From an uncultured Candidatus Saccharibacteria bacterium (GTDB lineage: Bacteria; Patescibacteriota; Minisyncoccia; Phycocordibacterales; UBA2100), in NCBI GenBank assembly GCA_964424265.1, contig CAYRHX010000002.1:3345-67344 (forward strand): DNA of 64,000 bases, written 5' to 3'. The translations under genes and the position numbers were made by a program. The notes beneath the pieces are model-generated. The model ran no database searches and was not told where the DNA came from. It was given only the letters and a program-made list of their open reading frames with translations. Below, one piece after another: positions 47,993 through 58,257 of the stretch (position 1 is its first letter; each line of letters begins with the position of its first letter).

Positions 47993-48063
47993 GCGGGTAT
48001 GGTTTAGTGGTAGAACGCGTCCTTGCCAAGGACGAGAGCGGAGTTCGATTCTCCGTACCCGCA
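47993..48063 (+). tRNA. tRNA-Gly (anticodon GCC)
   Basis: GCGGGTA-t-GGTTTAGTGGTAGAAC-GCGTCC-TTGCCAA-GGACG-agag-CGGAG-TTCGATT-CTCCG-TACCCGC-A. Confidence 0.85.
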
Positions 48064-48127
48064 CAGACGAACCGCTTGTTTGTATTTAGACTCTCGTCCG
48101 CGTATGATGCATTGGTTGGTTTATTAG

Positions 48128-48199
48128 GCTCCCGTGGTGAAACGGATATCACAACAGTCTTCGGAACTGTCGTTCCAGGTTCGAATCCTGGCGGGAGCA
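48128..48199 (+). tRNA. tRNA-Arg (anticodon UCG)
   Basis: GCTCCCG-tg-GTGAAACGGATATCAC-a-ACAGT-CTTCGGA-ACTGT-cgtt-CCAGG-TTCGAAT-CCTGG-CGGGAGC-A. Confidence 0.8.
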
Positions 48200-48227: not shown

Positions 48228-49700
48228 GTGATGAAATCGAACGAACTGCCGATTCCGCAAGAGGTGCTTTCCCTCTGCAAGACACTGAAAGAGGCCCACT
48301 TCGACGCCTATTTGGTGGGCGGATGCGTCCGAGATCTGCTGCTCAACAAAGAACCCAAGGATTGGGATATTACGACGAATGCGACCCCCGAAAAGATACA
48401 AGATCTTTTTGAAGAGACCTTTTATGAAAACGACTACGGCACGGTCGGCATCGTCACGCAATCAGAAAATCCGCGATTGAAAGTGGTGGAGGTGACCCCA
48501 TATCGCATGGAGGGGAAGTATTCAAACGCGCGCCATCCAGACACCGTCAGCTTCAGCACAAATTTATCAGAAGATCTAAAACGACGAGATCTTACCATCA
48601 ACGCTATCGCCTACGACCCAACCACACATACGCTCGTCGACGAGCACGGCGGTAGAGATGACGTCGCTAGGCGACGCATTAAGACTGTCGGCAATCCGCA
48701 CGCACGATTCGAGGAGGATGCGCTGCGGATGCTGCGGGCTGTCCGGTTATCTGCCGAACTCGATTTCGTTATAGACGCAGAAACCATGGCTGGGATTTCC
48801 GCACAAGCTGAGCAGCTAAAAAAGATCTCTCGCGAACGCGTACGTGATGAACTCATTCGGATTCTCGAAAGCGATCGCCCTATGCAGGCGCTGTATGTGG
48901 CCCAAAAGCTCGGTCTTTTACGGCATGTCATTCCCGAACTCGAGGAGGGGATCGGGTGCGCGCAAAACCAAGCGCATTCCTTTGATGTGTTCGAGCACCT
49001 TATGCGCGCGCTCCAATATGCGGCAGATCAGAAATGGTCACTCGATGTGCGCCTTGCCGCGCTCCTCCACGATGTGGGCAAGCCAGCGACCCGATTGTGG
49101 TCGGATGAGAAAAAAGACTGGACATTCCACGGACACGACGTGGTGAGCGCAAAGATGACAAAACGAATTCTTGCTGATTTACGCTTTCCCAAAGAAACAA
49201 TCGAGAAGGTATCTAAACTCGTCCGATTGCATATGTTTTTCTCCGATCCCGACCAAATCACCCTCTCCGCAGTTCGTCGCGTCATATCAAAGGTTGGTAC
49301 GGAACACATTACCGATCTCCTCAACCTACGCGTATGTGATCGTATCGGTACAGGGAGGCCCAAGGCGCATCCCTTTCGCCTGCGCAAATATATGTCTATG
49401 GTGGACGAAGCGATGCGAGATCCGGTATCGGTCGCGATGCTCAAAATCAATGGCACACGCCTCATTGAGCTTGGGGAGACCCCTGGACCCCGGATCGGCT
49501 GGATTCTACATGCACTTCTTGAGGAAGTGCTCGATGATCCGACCAAAAACACCGAAAACTACTTGGAGCAACGCTCAGGAGAGCTCAGGAATATGGAGTT
49601 CGAGGCATTAAAATCGCTCGGAGAAGCTGGGAAGGATCGGAAGGAGGGAGAAGATGATGCGGCAGTACAGGAATTGCGCAAAAAGCATCGTGTGAGCTAA
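48228..49700 (+). CDS. cca: CCA-adding tRNA nucleotidyltransferase with HD domain
   Basis: ...AYLVGGCVRDLLL...DWDITT... and ...RRDLTINAIAYD... are PolyA_pol head motifs; HD domain ...LLHDVGKP... Confidence 0.9.
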   Translation: MMKSNELPIPQEVLSLCKTLKEAHFDAYLVGGCVRDLLLNKEPKDWDITTNATPEKIQDLFEETFYENDYGTVGIVTQSENPRLKVVEVTPYRMEGKYSNARHPDTVSFSTNLSEDLKRRDLTINAIAYDPTTHTLVDEHGGRDDVARRRIKTVGNPHARFEEDALRMLRAVRLSAELDFVIDAETMAGISAQAEQLKKISRERVRDELIRILESDRPMQALYVAQKLGLLRHVIPELEEGIGCAQNQAHSFDVFEHLMRALQYAADQKWSLDVRLAALLHDVGKPATRLWSDEKKDWTFHGHDVVSAKMTKRILADLRFPKETIEKVSKLVRLHMFFSDPDQITLSAVRRVISKVGTEHITDLLNLRVCDRIGTGRPKAHPFRLRKYMSMVDEAMRDPVSVAMLKINGTRLIELGETPGPRIGWILHALLEEVLDDPTKNTENYLEQRSGELRNMEFEALKSLGEAGKDRKEGEDDAAVQELRKKHRVS

Positions 49701-51931: not shown

Positions 51932-52120
51932 ATGGCAGAAAGACAGGAATCGCTCGGCCTGACGGCCGAGCAGATCAACGCTATCCTCTGGGGCCCTGGG
52001 GGCTCCGAGGATCACCCCAACGGAGGGATCGGTATCACCCGCGCCGAAGCGCGGGCCAACCGATCAATCGACTTCGGGGGCGACCGCGTCCCCGGGGTAG
52101 AAGACTCGCCCTCCGAGTAG
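51932..52120 (+). CDS. Hypothetical small Gly-rich protein (62 aa) with perfect Shine-Dalgarno and own terminator
   Basis: TAAGGAGGG 5 nt before the ATG; upstream hairpin CCGCAAA-N10-TTTGCGG; downstream hairpin GGGAAGGGGCG..CGCCTCTTCCC + T-rich tract (about 52125-52170). Confidence 0.35.
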   Translation: MAERQESLGLTAEQINAILWGPGGSEDHPNGGIGITRAEARANRSIDFGGDRVPGVEDSPSE

Positions 52121-52250: not shown

Positions 52251-52308
52251 ATTACCGGGATTCCCCGCTTCTTGACACATTACCGGGATTCCCGGTAATA
52301 TTACCGGG
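52251..52308 (+). promoter_or_regulatory. Promoter/operator: TTGACA (52272-77) -18- TAATAT (52296-301) with 21-bp perfect palindrome ATTACCGGGATTCCCGGTAAT (52279-99) in the spacer, plus two more ATTACCGGG half-sites (52251-59, 52300-08)
   Basis: Seen directly; the -10 ends 8 nt before the ATG of the GHKL-ATPase gene (near-leaderless). Confidence 0.5.
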
Positions 52309-52309
52309 T

Positions 52310-53272
52310 ATGAAGATTCATCTCCCAAATAGTGCGTGGTTGGGGAATATTGATCCATTCCTACGACAATTCGATCCTACCAATCCAAATGAACTCCTCA
52401 TTACAGCAAATAAAAAATGGATCTCCGTACACCCTGTGATACTCACAATGATCGCCTCACTCGGGCAAACTGTCTCACCCAAGCATATCTCTTGCGAGGC
52501 ACTCGAAGCGACTTCGAAACATTACTTTGAGCGAATGGGGTTGTTTGCATTCCTCAAGATCGACTCTGGCATCAGGGTAATAAGTCATGAGCCTGCCGGC
52601 CGCTTCGTCCCTCTCACGCAGATCAAGACAGCATCGGAGCTCACGCAGTTTATAACTGACATGATCCCCCTCCTCCACCTTACGCCCTCCCACGCAGAAC
52701 CAATTCGCTATATCGTTAGTGAGCTGGTGCGCAATGTAATTGAACATGCAAGATCTCCGCACGGCGCGTTCGTCGCTGCGCAATACTATGAAAAGAGCAA
52801 CTCGATCCGCATCGGTATCAGCGATGTTGGAGTGGGTATTAGAAAAACAATCAGTACATCGTACCCAGTGTCAGACGATCTTTCAGCAATACAACTTGCG
52901 CTGATGCCCGGTATCACAGGAACAACCCGACGCGAGGGAGGTACCGAACAAAATGCAGGGGCCGGATTGTTCTTCATCAAATCTATTGCATCGGTAAACG
53001 GCGATTTCTTTGCAATGTATAGTGGAACTGGATTATACAAACTCCTCAAACAACACTCAAAGAAGCGGCACGTCCTTCACGCTAATCCAGAAAAAGATCG
53101 GCATTCATCGGGCAACAATTTTCCTGCATGGCCCGGGACTGCAGTCGGCATTGACATGAAGCTGGACGAAAACGAGACATTTTCAACACTTCTAGACCAT
53201 ATACGAAACACCTACTCTCGAGCCGTGCGTGAACGACGACAATCTCGTTACAAGAAACCTACCTTTATATGA
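52310..53272 (+). CDS. GHKL/HATPase_c-domain protein with N-terminal domain of unknown function (320 aa)
   Basis: N-box IVSELVRNVIEHA, G1 ISDVGVGI, G2 NAGAGLFFIKS; no His-kinase DHp/HisKA region; N-terminal 130 aa unrecognised. Confidence 0.6.
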   Translation: MKIHLPNSAWLGNIDPFLRQFDPTNPNELLITANKKWISVHPVILTMIASLGQTVSPKHISCEALEATSKHYFERMGLFAFLKIDSGIRVISHEPAGRFVPLTQIKTASELTQFITDMIPLLHLTPSHAEPIRYIVSELVRNVIEHARSPHGAFVAAQYYEKSNSIRIGISDVGVGIRKTISTSYPVSDDLSAIQLALMPGITGTTRREGGTEQNAGAGLFFIKSIASVNGDFFAMYSGTGLYKLLKQHSKKRHVLHANPEKDRHSSGNNFPAWPGTAVGIDMKLDENETFSTLLDHIRNTYSRAVRERRQSRYKKPTFI

Positions 53273-53559
53273 CACTTATTGATCTTCATGCGGCAGTCGG
53301 TGATTTTGCCGAAAACAAAGACATCGCACGCGACATTCGTTTACAGAAGATTATTCCCGCCCTAGAACGAGGGGAAGAAGTAGTTCTTGATTTCGAATCC
53401 GTCTCTGGAGCGACGCAATCTTTTATACACGCTCTGATCAGCGATGTATTTCGACTCTATGGCAGCGATACACTGGATCACATCACTTTCAAGAATTGCA
53501 ACGAAACAGTCCAGAAGGTCATCACTATCGTATCCGAATATATGCAAGAATCAACGTAA
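53269..53559 (+). CDS. DUF4325-like STAS-fold protein (96 aa), translationally coupled to the GHKL protein
   Basis: ...VVLDFESVSGATQSFIHALISDVFRLYG... matches the DUF4325 (STAS-like) pattern as I recall it; 4-nt start/stop overlap (ATGA). Confidence 0.55.
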   Translation: MTLIDLHAAVGDFAENKDIARDIRLQKIIPALERGEEVVLDFESVSGATQSFIHALISDVFRLYGSDTLDHITFKNCNETVQKVITIVSEYMQEST

Positions 53560-53619
53560 GGCACCGATCGTTTGGCTAAGTCAAGAAAACCGCCTCTCTG
53601 CGTGCGCCCCTATGGTCAC

Positions 53620-54780
53620 CTATCGTAGGTATTTTTTCTTCTTCAATTTTTCAGGCAAAAAAGATTCGGTATCACCTGTCCCGAGTTTACTCGAGGGATA
53701 CATTTCATATCCCTTTCCATAATCCAATCCCTTCATGAGCTTCGTCGGTGCGTTGCGTACCTTGAGAGGGATGAGGAGATTGCCGAATTTTTTTACATCA
53801 TCGAGTGCCTCGAAAATCGCGTCGTACGCACGACGATCTTTTTTGCACTGTGCCAAGTAGGCGACGCCGTGCGCGAGGTTGATCGTCGCTTCTGGATATC
53901 CGATTTTATTGACCGCTTCAAACACCGCGTTGGCGACGACGAGTGCGGTCGGCTGAGCGAGGCCGATGTCTTCACTCGCAAAAATCACCATGCGTCGCGC
54001 GATAAATTTGGGATCCTCACCAGCTTCTACCATGCGCGCGAGGTAATAGAGCGCCGCATCTGGCTGCGATGCACGCATTGATTTTATGAGTGCAGAGATG
54101 GTGTTGTAATGCTCCTCGCCCCTTTTGTCGTAACGAAGATGCTTCGACTGCACCGCTTCCTTGAGCGTGTCGATCGTGATCTTGCCGTATAGATTCTGCG
54201 CAGTTTCGAGCGTCGTGATCGCCTGTCGCGCATCACCGCCCGCCATTTGAAAGAGCCACTCGCGCGCGGCCTTCGGCAATTTGATTTTCGTGCGGGCAAG
54301 TATTCTTTCCATCTCCACTTCGCTGTGCTCGTTCAACACAAACACGCGACAACGTGAGAGAAGGGGAGCAATAATCTCGAAGCTCGGATTTTCTGTCGTC
54401 GCACCAATGAGCGTGATGTCACCGCGCTCTACAAAGGGCAAGAGAAAATCTTGTTGCGCTTTATTGAAACGATGGATCTCGTCGACGAAAAGTATCTTGG
54501 GCCGCTGCGTAAGGAGCGTACCTCGACCCCCGATGACCTTTTTAATATCTTCTTTCCCAGAGTCCACGGCCGACAATTCATAAAACTCCGCTCCCACCGC
54601 GTTTGCGTAGATGCGCGCGAGCGTGGTCTTGCCGCTACCCGGCGGCCCCCACAGAATAAAGGAAAATAGCTCCTTCTTTTCTGTCGCAACACGTAGGGGT
54701 TTGCCCGCACCTACCAAATGCTCCTGCCCCACGAAATCTGCCAAGACCTTCGGCCGCACCCTTGACGCAAGTGGTTCCAT
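53620..54780 (-). CDS. rarA: Replication-associated recombination protein A (AAA+)
   Basis: ...ILWGPPGSGKTTLARIYAN..., ILFVDEIHRFNKAQQD, C-terminal MgsA helical domain. Confidence 0.9.
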   Translation of the reverse strand: MEPLASRVRPKVLADFVGQEHLVGAGKPLRVATEKKELFSFILWGPPGSGKTTLARIYANAVGAEFYELSAVDSGKEDIKKVIGGRGTLLTQRPKILFVDEIHRFNKAQQDFLLPFVERGDITLIGATTENPSFEIIAPLLSRCRVFVLNEHSEVEMERILARTKIKLPKAAREWLFQMAGGDARQAITTLETAQNLYGKITIDTLKEAVQSKHLRYDKRGEEHYNTISALIKSMRASQPDAALYYLARMVEAGEDPKFIARRMVIFASEDIGLAQPTALVVANAVFEAVNKIGYPEATINLAHGVAYLAQCKKDRRAYDAIFEALDDVKKFGNLLIPLKVRNAPTKLMKGLDYGKGYEMYPSSKLGTGDTESFLPEKLKKKKYLR

Positions 54781-57614: not shown

Positions 57615-57857
57615 ATGTCCCAAAAAGTCATCGTTGTTGGTAATTCGCTCGCAGTCACCATCCCAAAGGAATCAGCCAAGAGACTCGGCCTTAGTGCAGG
57701 CGACACCCTTGAATTCTCCGAGCACCCATCGACGCGCGCGTTTACAATGCGCGCACAGAAGGACACCTATTCAGACGTTAATCCCGACGTAGTCATGTGG
57801 ACCAATGCGTTTATCGACAAAAATAGGAAACTCTTGGTTCGGCTCGCAGATAAGTAG
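57615..57857 (+). CDS. AbrB/MazE/SpoVT-type antitoxin
   Basis: VIVVGNSLAVTIPKESAKRLGLSAGDTLEF is a swapped-hairpin beta-barrel signature. Confidence 0.7.
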   Translation: MSQKVIVVGNSLAVTIPKESAKRLGLSAGDTLEFSEHPSTRAFTMRAQKDTYSDVNPDVVMWTNAFIDKNRKLLVRLADK

Positions 57858-57858
57858 C

Positions 57859-58257
57859 ATGAACTACCTTTCGGCTGCGGATATTCTTGCTATTCACGAC
57901 CGCCTCATCGAAGAAACAGGCGGCATGTTGGGCGTGCGCGAAGAAAATCTATTGCAATCCATCGCACAACGCCCCAAGACCTCCTTCGGAGACGTAGAGC
58001 AATTTCCGGATATTTTCACGAAAGCGGCCGTGTACCTTGAATCCATTGCGACCTACCATGTCTTTCTCGATGGCAACAAACGCACCGCGCTTTCTGCAGC
58101 GGCAGTGTTTCTACGCCTCAATGGATACGAAGCGACCTTTCCAATCGCAGCGACGGAGGAATTCATGGTTGCAGCGGCACAGCGGAAATATTCACTCGAG
58201 CAAATCGCCGCCTGGCTGAAATCCCGCTCAAAGCGAACCCCTCGAAAGGAATACTGA
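57859..58257 (+). CDS. doc: Doc (death-on-curing) Fic-family toxin
   Basis: ...YHVFLDGNKRTALSAAAVFLRLNGY... is the Doc motif HxFx(D/N)GNKR. Start at MNYLSAADIL, 1 nt after the antitoxin stop; the track ORF starts at 57805. Confidence 0.8.
   Translation: MNYLSAADILAIHDRLIEETGGMLGVREENLLQSIAQRPKTSFGDVEQFPDIFTKAAVYLESIATYHVFLDGNKRTALSAAAVFLRLNGYEATFPIAATEEFMVAAAQRKYSLEQIAAWLKSRSKRTPRKEY

What the first reader, a model, noticed from the sequence alone, without database searches (positions are those of the whole stretch)
52251..53559. Candidate uncharacterised two-gene module: GHKL ATPase (unknown N-domain) + DUF4325/STAS-like partner under a palindromic operator
A 320-aa protein has a bona fide histidine-kinase-like ATPase fold (N-box ELVRNVIEHA, G1 DVGVGI, G2 GAGLF) but no HisKA/DHp region, and an unrecognisable 130-aa N-terminal domain. 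It is translationally coupled (ATGA overlap) to a 96-aa protein whose ...LDFESVSGATQSFIHALISDVF... core looks like the STAS-like DUF4325 fold. GHKL + STAS is the logic of RsbW/RsbV partner-switching, but both proteins here are atypical: the ATPase is twice the size of RsbW, and the STAS-like protein lacks an obvious phospho-acceptor Ser. The pair is driven by a TTGACA-18-TAATAT promoter with a 21-bp perfect palindrome (ATTACCGGGATTCCCGGTAAT) in the spacer and two extra ATTACCGGG half-sites, so a dedicated repressor binds there. It sits directly next to a XerC/D-type recombinase gene in an otherwise housekeeping region. To my knowledge HATPase + DUF4325 pairs are recurrent but functionally unstudied. 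This could be a signalling switch or a conflict/defence module.
Basis: partly seen in the sequence, partly recalled or inferred. Interest (0 to 1): 0.8.

Follow-up and report, generated by a model that had tools for sequence, protein, structure and literature searches.

The report
Self-repressed kinase–STAS switch cassette
This is a small two-gene module, a protein kinase plus the small protein it probably phosphorylates, that appears to switch off its own promoter; it is a stripped-down relative of a bacterial DNA-damage-sensing immune switch first described in 2026, it has spread between ultra-small bacteria and archaea, and its output is unknown.

Summary

**Not unstudied.** The pair belongs to the CapK/CapS and VapK/VapS kinase-substrate class (Chambers et al., EMBO J 2026).
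- The "unknown" N-domain is a degenerate STAS domain.
- The kinase domain is closest to SpoIIAB/RsbW.
- The 96-aa partner is a VapS-type (DUF4325) STAS fold. It does carry invariant Thr49 and Ser51 at the phospho-acceptor position.

**What is new.** It has no PIN toxin, no wHTH and no regulated neighbour operon. In about 150 loci, from Patescibacteria, DPANN archaea and others, the two genes always travel together with no recurrent third gene.

The operator TACCGGGA-W-TCCCGGTA travels with them. In bacteria it sits between -35 and -10. In archaea it sits beside a TATA box. In both, the mRNA is probably leaderless. The repressor is therefore almost certainly cassette-encoded, and I infer the basic kinase, alone or with its acidic partner.

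**Most likely mechanism.** A self-repressed stress or infection switch with a toxin-antitoxin-like or defence output.

**Verdict.** New variant of a known kind. The XerC adjacency is incidental.

The parts
52251..52269 (+). Distal operator site: half-site ATTACCGGGA followed by a degenerate right arm (TACCGGGATTCCCCGCT, 3 mismatches to the palindrome). It lies 28 bp upstream of the main palindrome.
   Evidence: direct repeat D3, 28-bp spacing. The 27-28 bp spacing between forward half-sites is the family norm, seen in 63 of 82 cases.
52272..52301 (+). Sigma-70-type promoter: TTGACA (52272-52277), 18-nt spacer, TAATAT (52296-52301). The -10 ends 8 nt before the ATG and there is no Shine-Dalgarno sequence, so the mRNA is probably leaderless.
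   Evidence: One search gives a 10/12 match. The family-wide gap from -10 to ATG is 4-11 nt in 33 of 43 bacterial-type loci. An SD-like 4-mer occurs in only 8 of 123 loci.
52279..52299 (.). Main operator: perfect 10+1+10 palindrome ATTACCGGGA-T-TCCCGGTAAT that fills the promoter spacer and overlaps the -10.
   Evidence: I11. The core TACCGGGA-W-TCCCGGTA is conserved upstream of the pair in bacteria and archaea.
52300..52308 (+). Proximal extra half-site ATTACCGGG, immediately before the start codon at the expected transcription start.
   Evidence: I7. Archaeal loci likewise carry a half-site 2-4 nt before the ATG.
52310..53272 (+). CapK/VapK-like Ser/Thr protein kinase, 320 aa, basic (pI 9.6).
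   Evidence: - ORF and homologues: (2837 homologues).
- AlphaFold2 model: pLDDT 87, pTM 0.89.
- Homology to VapK: BLASTP 1e-10, hhalign 96.8%.
- Homology to a bona fide CapK: hhalign 96.4%.
- dN/dS about 0.07.
52310..52630 (+). N-terminal degenerate STAS domain of the kinase (aa 1-107). His41-Pro42 sit where the phospho-serine loop would be, and the domain carries the motif Y-x-x-RMGLF-x-FL.
   Evidence: - The family profile aligns over residues 2-252 with Marinitoga phage MPV1_51 at hhalign 99.0%, E 8e-18.
- Residues 20-88 of MPV1_51 pass Pfam STAS at 25.1 bits against a cut-off of 22.6.
- The second half also aligns with CapK.
- There is no direct Pfam hit.
52631..53173 (+). GHKL (Bergerat-fold) kinase domain, aa 108-288. 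It contains the N-box E138/N142, G1 D172-G174-G176, and the lid plus G2 N215-AGAGLF.
53174..53269 (+). C-terminal amphipathic helix and basic tail (aa 289-320, ...AVRERRQSRYKKPTFI). The extreme C-terminal motif [KR]x[PA][RK]F[ITA] is conserved. This is a candidate nucleic-acid-binding element (inference).
   Evidence: - Helix 291-315 in the model.
- The motif is conserved down to about 30% identity.
- The last 16 residues carry a median charge of +6.
- The element is absent from VapK and CapK.
53269..53559 (+). VapS-type single-domain STAS protein (Pfam DUF4325), 96 aa, acidic (pI 4.6). It is translationally coupled to the kinase by an ATGA overlap. Invariant Thr49 and Ser51 are the candidate phospho-acceptors.
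   Evidence: - Pfam and conservation.
- AlphaFold2 model: pLDDT 94.
- The best solved-structure hit is Escherichia VapS, 9z7o.
- hhalign to VapS: E 2.6e-5.
- dN/dS about 0.09.
53609..53639 (+). Terminator-like hairpin followed by a T-run, 50 nt after the stop codon. It lies over the 3' end of the convergent rarA gene and is a possible end of the transcript.
   Evidence: This is a consensus match only, and the count is no higher than in shuffled sequence.

Best explanation
**What it is.** The locus is an autonomous, horizontally mobile two-gene switch of the CapK/CapS and VapK/VapS class.
- Gene 1 encodes a Ser/Thr kinase. It has a degenerate STAS domain, a SpoIIAB/RsbW-type GHKL kinase domain and a basic C-terminal helix and tail.
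- Gene 2 encodes its cognate single-domain STAS substrate (DUF4325).

**Shown here**
- The domain identities and the homology to VapK, CapK and VapS.
- Strict co-inheritance of the two genes.
- The absence of any third conserved gene.
- Strong purifying selection on both genes.
- A multi-site operator (half-site TACCGGGA) that travels with the pair and overlaps the core promoter in both bacterial and archaeal hosts.

**Inferred**
1. A cassette-encoded protein represses the cassette's own promoter by occluding RNA polymerase. This is most likely the basic kinase, alone or in complex with its acidic partner.
2. The kinase is switched on by a nucleic-acid stress signal. For CapK that signal is single-stranded DNA from damage or infection.
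3. The active kinase phosphorylates Thr49 or Ser51 at the start of helix alpha-2 of the partner. This breaks the complex and de-represses the operon.
4. The freed component then acts on a target common to bacteria and archaea, giving growth arrest or defence in the manner of a toxin-antitoxin module.
5. The probable leaderless mRNA and the ATGA coupling let the cassette be expressed in either domain of life.
For: **Kinase identity**
- The catalytic motifs are invariant.
- BLASTP to E. coli VapK gives E 1e-10 and hhalign gives 96.8%.
- hhalign to the kinase of a verified CapKS-Bub locus gives 96.4%.
- The N-domain is STAS by transitive homology.

**Partner identity**
- DUF4325 scores 51 bits.
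- VapS is itself DUF4325 and is the best PDB sequence hit.
- The fold is STAS.
- T49, Q50 and S51 are invariant. They align to the VapS and CapS phospho-serines.

**Physical link between the two proteins**
- Natural fusions of kinase and DUF4325 exist.
- A PADLOC DrmA model contains both parts in the same order.

**Autonomy**
- The pair is present in every locus where the contig allows.
- Among 132 immediate neighbours, no Pfam family is seen more than twice.
- Among 865 flanking ORFs, the largest cluster spans 6 of 134 loci.
- The downstream neighbour is convergent in 38 of 64 loci.

**Operator**
- It is conserved across domains of life.
- Its spacing is ordered.
- Promoter type tracks the host domain.
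- There is no further site in the 64-kb window.

**Other support**
- The kinase is basic (median pI 9.45) and the partner is acidic (median pI 5.4).
- Leaderless geometry holds across the family.
- dN/dS is 0.07 for the kinase and 0.09 for the partner.
- Mechanistic precedent comes from PMC13373217.
Against: - Neither protein has a recognisable DNA-binding domain, so the operator binder is inferred, not identified.
- No toxin or effector domain is present, so the output is unknown.
- Four distant GC-rich loci, at 44-50% identity, keep the pair but lack the canonical operator. Autoregulation through this site is therefore a property of the core clade only.
- Homology to VapK, VapS and CapK is remote: 23-30% identity. 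hhalign to VapS reaches only 75% probability.
- ssDNA activation is an extrapolation. The aromatic residue that contacts ssDNA in CapK and VapK could not be aligned with confidence.
- The neighbours are mostly not defence genes.
- No close relatives were found on viral contigs.
Confidence: 0.55

Rival explanations
1. It is a pure addiction (type II toxin-antitoxin-like) module with no sensing role. The kinase, or the free STAS protein, is toxic, the partner neutralises it, and the complex auto-represses. The cassette persists selfishly.
For: - It has the classic toxin-antitoxin anatomy: two overlapping genes, a palindromic operator over its own promoter, scattered unrelated insertion sites, cross-phylum transfer and strong co-inheritance.
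- VapKSC, the nearest relative, is a toxin-antitoxin system.
Against: - There is no known toxin domain.
- The kinase keeps a sensor-like STAS domain homologous to that of ssDNA-activated CapK.
- Toxicity is untested.
Confidence: 0.2
2. It is a CapKS-type transcriptional controller of an adjacent or distant host operon, so its output is gene regulation.
For: - CapK/CapS do exactly this.
- The narrow and wide half-site arrangements mirror CapS sites.
Against: - The partner lacks the wHTH of CapS.
- The neighbours are unrelated and are convergent in 59% of loci.
- Operator half-sites are not enriched outside the cassette's own promoter.
- No second site exists in the 64-kb window.
Confidence: 0.07
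3. It is a classical RsbW/RsbV- or SpoIIAB/SpoIIAA-type partner-switch that controls a host sigma factor.
For: The closest solved folds are SpoIIAB or RsbW for the kinase, and RsbV, RsbS or SpoIIAA for the partner.
Against: - The same cassette, at 55-70% identity, sits in archaea, which have no sigma factors. One example lies next to TBP and MCM genes.
- No sigma gene is nearby.
- The kinase has extra N- and C-terminal domains and is basic.
Confidence: 0.03
4. The GHKL protein is a DNA-acting ATPase of the MutL, MORC or topoisomerase type rather than a protein kinase, and the STAS protein only modulates it.
For: - The protein is basic.
- A PADLOC DrmA helicase model contains the same module.
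Against: - The top structural matches, and the only sequence-level relatives with known function, are Ser kinases.
- There is no transducer or S5 domain.
- An invariant Thr/Ser sits at the STAS acceptor position.
Confidence: 0.07
5. The palindrome is bound by a host-encoded repressor, or is a structural or transposition signal, and the cassette proteins do not bind it.
For: No DNA-binding domain is detectable in either protein.
Against: - The motif is conserved next to the pair in hosts from two domains of life that share no transcription factors.
- It is repositioned relative to -35/-10 or to the TATA box in each host type.
- It is not found at both ends of the cassette.
- It lies in untranscribed promoter DNA, so it is not an RNA hairpin.
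Confidence: 0.05

Closest known systems
VapKSC (VapK kinase, VapS STAS antitoxin, VapC PIN toxin), Chambers et al., EMBO J 2026 (PMC13373217)
   Same: - The kinase has a STAS-GHKL architecture and detectable homology: 29% identity over 129 aa, hhalign 96.8%.
- The partner belongs to the same Pfam family, DUF4325.
- VapS is the best solved-structure hit.
- The gene order is kinase then STAS, and the operon is stand-alone.
- A conserved Ser/Thr sits at the start of alpha-2.
   Different: - There is no VapC/PIN gene.
- The partner ends at residue 96 and lacks the C-terminal helix (VapS 94-116) that inhibits VapC.
- The kinase has an extra basic C-terminal helix and tail.
- A conserved operator is present here, whereas none is visible upstream of the E. 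coli vapK examined.
- The hosts are Patescibacteria, DPANN archaea and others rather than enterobacteria.
CapK/CapS (controller of associated pathways), same paper
   Same: - The kinase is homologous to the CapK of a verified CapKS-Bub locus.
- The system is autoregulated through palindromic half-sites that occur in both narrow (1-bp spacer) and wide arrangements.
   Different: - The partner has no wHTH, and the kinase has no N-terminal HTH.
- There is no downstream immune operon.
- The half-site is TACCGGGA rather than TTAA.
- The DNA-binding subunit is unidentified.
SpoIIAB/SpoIIAA and RsbW/RsbV partner-switching modules
   Same: These are the best structural matches for both proteins. They share the logic of a kinase paired with a STAS substrate.
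   Different: - There is no sigma factor, and the cassette is present in archaea.
- The kinase is twice the size and carries its own STAS domain.
- The kinase is basic.
Type II toxin-antitoxin modules with kinase toxins (for example HipBA)
   Same: Two coupled genes, operator palindromes over their own promoter, mobility and scattered insertion sites. This comparison rests on anatomy and established knowledge only.
   Different: - The kinase fold is unrelated.
- The small partner has no DNA-binding domain.
- Toxicity has not been shown.
Prophage-borne kinase + DUF4325 pairs (Marinitoga phage MPV1_51/50; PHROG 3364 and 5816)
   Same: - The two-gene architecture is the same.
- The family profile matches MPV1_51 at hhalign 99.0%.
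- The phage partner is DUF4325 at 59 bits.
   Different: - Identity is only about 27%.
- The phage pair sits in a lysogeny or integrase region.
- No TACCGGGA operator is seen upstream of it.

Membership tests
CapK/VapK-type kinases | GHKL kinase domain of the anti-sigma-factor (SpoIIAB/RsbW) type with an intact N-box Asn and G1/G2 boxes | tested here: met
- E138, N142, D172, G174, G176, G217 and G219 are invariant.
- Pfam HATPase_c_2 scores 27.1 bits, marginally below its cut-off.
CapK/VapK-type kinases | STAS domain N-terminal to the kinase domain | tested here: met
   - The test is transitive. The profile aligns over residues 2-252 with MPV1_51 at hhalign 99.0%.
- The N-domain of MPV1_51 passes Pfam STAS.
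- CapK aligns from residue 57.
- There is no direct Pfam hit, and the fold was not searched separately.
CapK/VapK-type kinases | Sequence homology to experimentally studied members | tested here: met
   - VapK: BLASTP 1e-10, hhalign 96.8%.
- CapK orthologue: hhalign 96.4%, E 1e-9.
- The locus of that orthologue was verified through its CapS, which matches 9z72 at E 1e-43.
CapK/VapK-type kinases | Kinase activity switched on by single-stranded DNA | not testable with these tools
   Only indirect evidence is available: the protein is basic. The ssDNA-stacking aromatic of CapK (W68) and VapK (F54) could not be aligned with confidence.
CapK proper | N-terminal HTH domain | tested here: not met
   The STAS-like domain starts at residue 2 and there is no N-terminal extension.
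VapS / DUF4325 STAS proteins | Pfam DUF4325 match and STAS fold | tested here: met
   - DUF4325 scores 51.2 bits against a cut-off of 23.
- The model has pLDDT 94.
VapS / DUF4325 STAS proteins | Conserved Ser/Thr at the N-terminus of helix alpha-2 (phospho-acceptor) | tested here: met
   - T49 and S51 are invariant in 79 sequences and in at least 97% of the 123 loci that carry the canonical operator.
- The helix starts at residue 50.
- VapS S48 aligns to position 50.
- The CapS serine aligns to S51.
- Which residue is used has not been tested.
VapS / DUF4325 STAS proteins | C-terminal helix that blocks the VapC active site (VapS 94-116) | tested here: not met
   The protein is 96 aa and ends with the STAS fold, whereas VapS is 116 aa.
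VapKSC system | Third gene encoding a VapC-like PIN nuclease | tested here: not met
   No recurrent neighbour is found. PIN_2 occurs in 2 of 132 neighbours only.
   - There is no wHTH.
- Downstream genes are unrelated and convergent in 38 of 64 loci.
CapKS system | Autoregulation through palindromic half-sites with narrow and wide spacing | tested here: inconclusive
   The site architecture is analogous: a 1-bp spacer in 132 cases, and spacers of 18-19 or 27-30 bp in 21 cases. Binding was not tested and the half-site sequence differs.
RsbW/RsbV-type sigma-factor partner switch | Cognate sigma factor bound by the kinase | tested here: not met
   The cassette is present in archaea. No sigma gene appears among the neighbours.
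Type II toxin-antitoxin module | One product is toxic and is neutralised by the other | not testable with these tools
   Only the anatomy fits.

The most novel reading that the evidence does not exclude
The cassette may be a previously unrecognised minimal class of conflict system that works in both bacteria and archaea. In this reading the GHKL kinase is at once the nucleic-acid sensor, the operator-binding repressor (through its basic surface and C-terminal tail) and the effector. It would phosphorylate a target universal to both domains. The acidic STAS protein would act as its pseudo-substrate antitoxin. Portability between domains would come from an operator that works with either type of promoter and from a leaderless mRNA.
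Probability: 0.2. Interest if true: 0.8.

Novelty: new variant of a known kind. Interest (0 to 1): 0.58.

Why it matters
- The kinase-STAS "sense and release" logic was shown in 2026 only for enterobacterial immune regulators and one PIN toxin system. It also exists as a bare two-gene unit with no visible effector or DNA-binding domain.
- This unit is under strong purifying selection. It is found in Patescibacteria (CPR) and DPANN archaea, organisms with tiny genomes and few recognised defence systems.
- It poses a sharp, testable question: what is the output of a kinase-STAS pair that has nothing attached?
- It is a clean natural example of a regulatory cassette built to work in two domains of life. 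The operator is kept, the promoter elements are swapped, and the mRNA is probably leaderless.
- The 17-bp operator and two small proteins make it directly tractable by EMSA, phosphorylation assays and toxicity or defence tests.

Tried and rejected
1. **Direct assignment of the N-domain failed.** Pfam at E up to 10 and hhalign against the VapK N-terminus and against DUF4325 gave nothing. The domain was resolved only through the phage homologue MPV1_51.
2. **No close relatives on viral contigs**. The first metagenome scan, with the distant member P0300, found nothing.
3. **Identifying the DNA-binding residues by covariation failed.** I compared operator variants with protein residues. Only one locus had purely variant half-sites. 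The DUF4325 invariants are also kept in loci without the operator. The result is uninformative, though it weakly argues against the STAS helix alpha-2 face being the operator reader.
4. **Flanking 19-nt direct repeat rejected.** The repeat at 52029 and 53666 was considered as a target-site duplication. It is not significant, because only an 11-mer is exact.
5. **RNA-element reading of the palindrome rejected.** There is no Rfam hit. The site lies in untranscribed promoter DNA, and the wide split-site variants cannot form a hairpin.
6. **Integrated-element reading rejected.** The idea was XerC plus a tRNA, but the nearest tRNAs are 4 kb away behind housekeeping genes, and integrases are rare neighbours.
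7. **The afdb50 fold library was unavailable**.
8. **The Leptotrichia plasmid DUF4325 hit** was only a fragment.
9. **No organism name could be recovered for the window.** An exact look-up of both window proteins in the public protein collection returned no accessions and no source names.
Full report
**1. Observation**

- ORF 52310-53272 (+) encodes 320 aa. ORF 53269-53559 (+) encodes 96 aa. The two overlap in ATGA.
- The larger protein carries the N-box ELVRNVIEHA, G1 DVGVGI and G2 GAGLF. It matches Pfam HATPase_c_2 at 27.1 bits, against a cut-off of 27.4. It has no HisKA domain.
- The smaller protein matches DUF4325 at 51.2 bits, against a cut-off of 23.
- TTGACA (52272-52277), an 18-nt spacer and TAATAT (52296-52301) form a 10/12 sigma-70 promoter.
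- The spacer holds the perfect palindrome ATTACCGGGATTCCCGGTAAT at 52279-52299. ATTACCGGG recurs at 52251 and 52300.
- The 17-mer core with up to 3 mismatches occurs only here in 64 kb. Two hits are seen against 0.16 expected.
- The upstream gene is a XerC-type recombinase.

**2. The pair is a conserved, autonomous unit**

- The kinase has 2837 homologues at E up to 0.001 in the 5.8-billion-protein set. The best 120 are all about 320 aa and 65-88% identical.
- Across loci recovered from species-representative genomes, from metagenomes and by exact look-up, the DUF4325 gene lies immediately downstream, usually overlapping. This holds in every locus where the contig allows.
- Hosts include Patescibacteria (Kaiser-, Zambryski-, Roizman-, Levy-, Buchananbacteria, Gracilibacteria and Saccharibacteria). 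Other bacterial hosts are WOR-1, Omnitrophota, Nitrospirales and delta- and gammaproteobacterial MAGs.
- Archaeal hosts include many DPANN lineages (Woese-, Nano-, Pace-, Aenigm-, Micr- and Iainarchaeota) and Thermoplasmatota. One archaeal locus lies between MCM/TBP genes and eIF genes.
- The scan was seeded with peptides from the window protein, so these lists show where the cassette occurs. They do not show enrichment.
- Contexts are unrelated. Among 132 immediate neighbours there are 171 Pfam families, and none occurs more than twice. Integrases account for 2 of the 132, and a handful are R-M, Abi or PIN genes.
- All-against-all clustering of 865 flanking ORFs from 134 non-redundant loci gives no family present in more than 6 loci.
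- The downstream neighbour is convergent in 38 of 64 loci.
- Both genes are under strong purifying selection. Median dN/dS is 0.07 for the kinase and 0.09 for the partner.
- The cassette is slightly AT-richer than its flanks.
- The XerC adjacency in this window is therefore incidental.

**3. The operator travels with the cassette**

- The core TACCGGGA-W-TCCCGGTA is found upstream of the pair in WOR-1, in an archaeon and in an unrelated bacterium.
- It is found in essentially all loci whose kinase is at least about 50% identical to the window protein.
- Exact half-site 6-mers reach 20.6 per kb in the 110 nt upstream, against 0.44 per kb across whole loci.
- 123 non-redundant loci carry the canonical operator, meaning at least two half-sites within one mismatch. 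In these there are 2-6 half-sites per promoter, and 102 loci have at least one "narrow" palindrome with a 1-bp spacer.
- Forward half-sites are spaced 27-28 bp apart in 63 of 82 cases. "Wide" arrangements with 18-19 or 27-30 bp between opposed half-sites occur 21 times.
- In bacteria the palindrome lies between a TTGAC -35 element and the -10. In archaea it abuts a TTTATAAATA-like TATA box, and a further half-site sits 2-4 nt before the ATG.
- Promoter type follows the host label. Of 38 archaeal loci, 34 are TATA-like and none has TTGAC. Of 27 bacterial loci, 16 have TTGAC and none is TATA-only.
- A rough neighbour-joining tree needs at least 4 switches between domains.
- Hosts from two domains share no transcription factors, and no third gene is conserved. 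The protein that reads this operator must therefore be encoded by the cassette. This is an inference, but a strong one.
- The site is in untranscribed DNA, and the wide variants cannot fold into a hairpin. It is therefore not an RNA element, and there is no Rfam hit.

**4. Probable leaderless expression**

- In 33 of 43 bacterial-type promoters the -10 ends 4-11 nt before the start codon, with a mode of 6. In this window the gap is 8 nt.
- In 47 of 54 archaeal-type promoters the TATA-like box starts 29-31 nt before the start codon.
- Only 8 of 123 loci have a Shine-Dalgarno-like 4-mer.
- Given the usual distances from promoter to transcription start, the transcript should begin at or next to the ATG. 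This is an inference.
- It is established knowledge that leaderless mRNAs can be translated by both bacterial and archaeal ribosomes. Together with the ATGA coupling of gene 2, this would make the cassette portable between domains.

**5. What the proteins are**

*Kinase*
- The AlphaFold2 model of the 320-aa protein has pLDDT 87 and pTM 0.89.
- The catalytic residues are invariant down to 30% identity.

*N-terminal domain*
- The N-terminal 107 residues have no Pfam hit.
- However, a family profile aligns over residues 2-252 with Marinitoga phage MPV1_51 at hhalign 99.0%, E 8e-18.
- Residues 20-88 of MPV1_51 pass Pfam STAS at 25.1 bits, against a cut-off of 22.6.
- The N-domain is therefore a degenerate STAS domain. 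It has His41-Pro42 where canonical STAS proteins carry the phospho-serine.

*C-terminal extension*
- Residues 289-320 form an amphipathic helix and a basic tail.
- The tail ends in the motif [KR]x[PA][RK]F[ITA], which is conserved across the wider family.

*Partner*
- The 96-aa protein models at pLDDT 94.
- T49, Q50 and S51 are invariant and sit at the start of helix alpha-2.

*Charge and physical link*
- The kinase is basic. Its median pI is 9.45, its net charge is +10, and the last 16 residues carry +6.
- The partner is acidic. Its median pI is 5.4, and the window protein has pI 4.6.
- Natural fusions of kinase and DUF4325 exist.
- One PADLOC DrmA model contains both parts in the same order.

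**6. Relation to what is known**

A full-text search found Chambers et al. (EMBO J 2026, PMC13373217). The paper describes two systems.

- *CapK/CapS.* CapK (HTH-STAS-GHKL) is activated by ssDNA. It phosphorylates Ser54 of CapS (STAS-wHTH). This dissolves the CapS dimer and de-represses the CapS gene and a downstream immune operon. CapS binds narrow and wide TTAA palindromes.
- *VapKSC.* VapK (STAS-GHKL) phosphorylates VapS (STAS plus a short C-terminal helix). This frees the PIN toxin VapC, and the operon protects against a phage.

I tested the relationship to each.

- The DUF4325 profile's best solved-structure hit is Escherichia VapS, 9z7o, at E 0.006.
- VapS itself scores 54 bits on Pfam DUF4325. 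An older note that PIN.4 VapC genes are coupled to DUF4325 genes describes the same system.
- I recovered an E. coli vapKSC locus. Its VapK matches the window kinase at BLASTP E 1e-10, with 29% identity over 129 aa, and at hhalign 96.8%.
- Its VapS matches the partner at hhalign E 2.6e-5, probability 75%.
- A distant hit in a Desulfosudaceae genome turned out to be a textbook CapKS locus: HsdS, kinase, a 192-aa protein, then Multi_ubiq, Prok-E2 and JAB-ThiF.
- That 192-aa protein matches two deposited chains at E 1e-43 (9z72, with 9z73) and 3e-39 (9z71). I take them to be the two CapS crystal structures of the paper. They match in length and entry count, and their accessions adjoin that of VapS, but their deposited names are generic. 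The kinase of that locus aligns with the window family from residue 57 to 288 at hhalign 96.4%, E 1e-9.
- The window pair is thus a member of this kinase-substrate superfamily.
- It fails the defining features of both named systems. It has no PIN gene and no VapS tail. It has no wHTH in the partner and no HTH in the kinase. It has no regulated neighbour.
- The paper does not mention archaea, DUF4325 or a two-gene form.

**7. Mechanism**

*Shown*
- A catalytically intact anti-sigma-type kinase with its own STAS domain.
- A STAS partner with an invariant acceptor position.
- Obligate co-inheritance of the two genes, and natural fusions between them.
- A cassette-linked multi-site operator over the core promoter.

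*Inferred*
- The cassette represses itself.
- The binder is most likely the basic kinase, through its C-terminal tail or the STAS-GHKL groove that binds ssDNA in CapK, possibly as a complex with the acidic partner.
- A nucleic-acid stress signal activates the kinase.
- Phosphorylation of T49 or S51 dissolves the complex.
- The output is toxin-antitoxin-like or defensive.

*Weak points*
- No DNA-binding domain and no effector domain is recognisable.
- Four GC-rich loci at 44-50% identity lack the canonical operator while keeping the DUF4325 invariants.

*Mobile-element associations*
- Distant two-gene relatives sit in prophage lysogeny regions. MPV1 carries its pair next to a serine integrase.
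- A Francisella prophage has a 293-aa protein of unknown function followed by a DUF4325 protein, near the cI repressor and integrase genes. Whether that 293-aa protein is a kinase homologue was not tested.
- These fit a conflict role but do not prove it.

**8. Rivals**

- A sigma-factor partner switch is excluded by the archaeal hosts.
- A CapKS-like controller of neighbouring genes is unlikely, given the unrelated and often convergent neighbours and the lack of further operator sites.
- A DNA-acting ATPase role is less likely than a kinase role.
- A host-encoded repressor is implausible across two domains of life.
- A purely selfish addiction module remains a live alternative for the output.

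**9. Verdict**

- The finding is real and well observed. Its main claim to novelty, that such pairs are functionally unstudied, has been overtaken by a 2026 paper.
- What remains new is a minimal, effector-less, self-repressed variant. It is spread across bacteria and archaea, has a conserved operator adapted to both promoter types, and is probably expressed from a leaderless mRNA.
- Novelty: new variant of a known kind. Interest is moderate to high.

Noticed in passing
window 57615-57857 and 57859-58257 (+): A MazE-type antitoxin gene (80 aa) is followed 2 nt later by a Fic/Doc-domain gene (132 aa). This is a separate two-gene toxin-antitoxin-like pair 4 kb downstream. Coordinates were transferred from L001 13306-13948.
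   Followed up: no
window 51932-52120 (+): A 62-aa ORF between xerC and the cassette is unusually GC-rich, 0.61 against about 0.46 in the cassette. It has no Pfam or PHROG match. Public assemblies of this organism call it as a gene, but it is absent from other cassette loci.
   Followed up: partly
window 53174-53269 (kinase residues 289-320): The extreme C-terminus [KR]x[PA][RK]F[ITA]-COOH, preceded by a basic stretch, is conserved down to about 30% identity. It is absent from VapK and CapK. Its function is unexplained; it may dock a partner or contact DNA.
   Followed up: partly
L086 4339-9676: A Desulfosudaceae locus has a type I R-M specificity subunit, then a CapK-like kinase and CapS (matching 9z72 at E 1e-43). 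These are followed by a Multi_ubiq, Prok-E2 and JAB-ThiF (Bub-type) operon. This is a clean example of the published CapKS arrangement.
   Followed up: yes
L170 2992-4345 (Marinitoga phage MPV1, MPV1_51/50): A temperate Thermotogae phage carries a STAS-GHKL kinase plus DUF4325 pair two genes from its serine integrase. PHROG 5816 is a fused kinase-DUF4325 family.
   Followed up: partly
PADLOC model PDLC02567 (DrmA), positions 76-249 and 318-388: A DISARM DrmA helicase model has an N-terminal region that matches the kinase (E 1e-14) and then the DUF4325 protein (E 0.003). Some defence helicases therefore carry this module as a fused head.
   Followed up: no
L167, L164, L114, L138 (upstream of the kinase gene): Operator variants with changed half-sites occur: TACCAGGA/TCCTGGTA, CCGAGGATTCCTCG and TACCGGAA/TGCCGGTA. 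There were too few for a covariation analysis.
   Followed up: partly
L169 3378-4409 (A. baumannii plasmid p2OC074, 6.8 kb): A small plasmid carries a 343-aa distant kinase homologue (26% identity over residues 39-313). It has no DUF4325 gene after it and sits beside a BrnT/BrnA toxin-antitoxin pair.
   Followed up: partly
window 47993-48199 and 48228-49700: tRNA-Gly(gcc) and tRNA-Arg(tcg) genes lie immediately upstream of the CCA-adding enzyme gene.
   Followed up: no
L090, L125, L135, L155 (upstream of the kinase gene): GC-rich loci with 44-50% identical kinases keep the pair and all DUF4325 invariants but lack the TACCGGGA operator. L135 has a GCGGGAATCCCGA-like sequence about 215 nt upstream.
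   Followed up: partly
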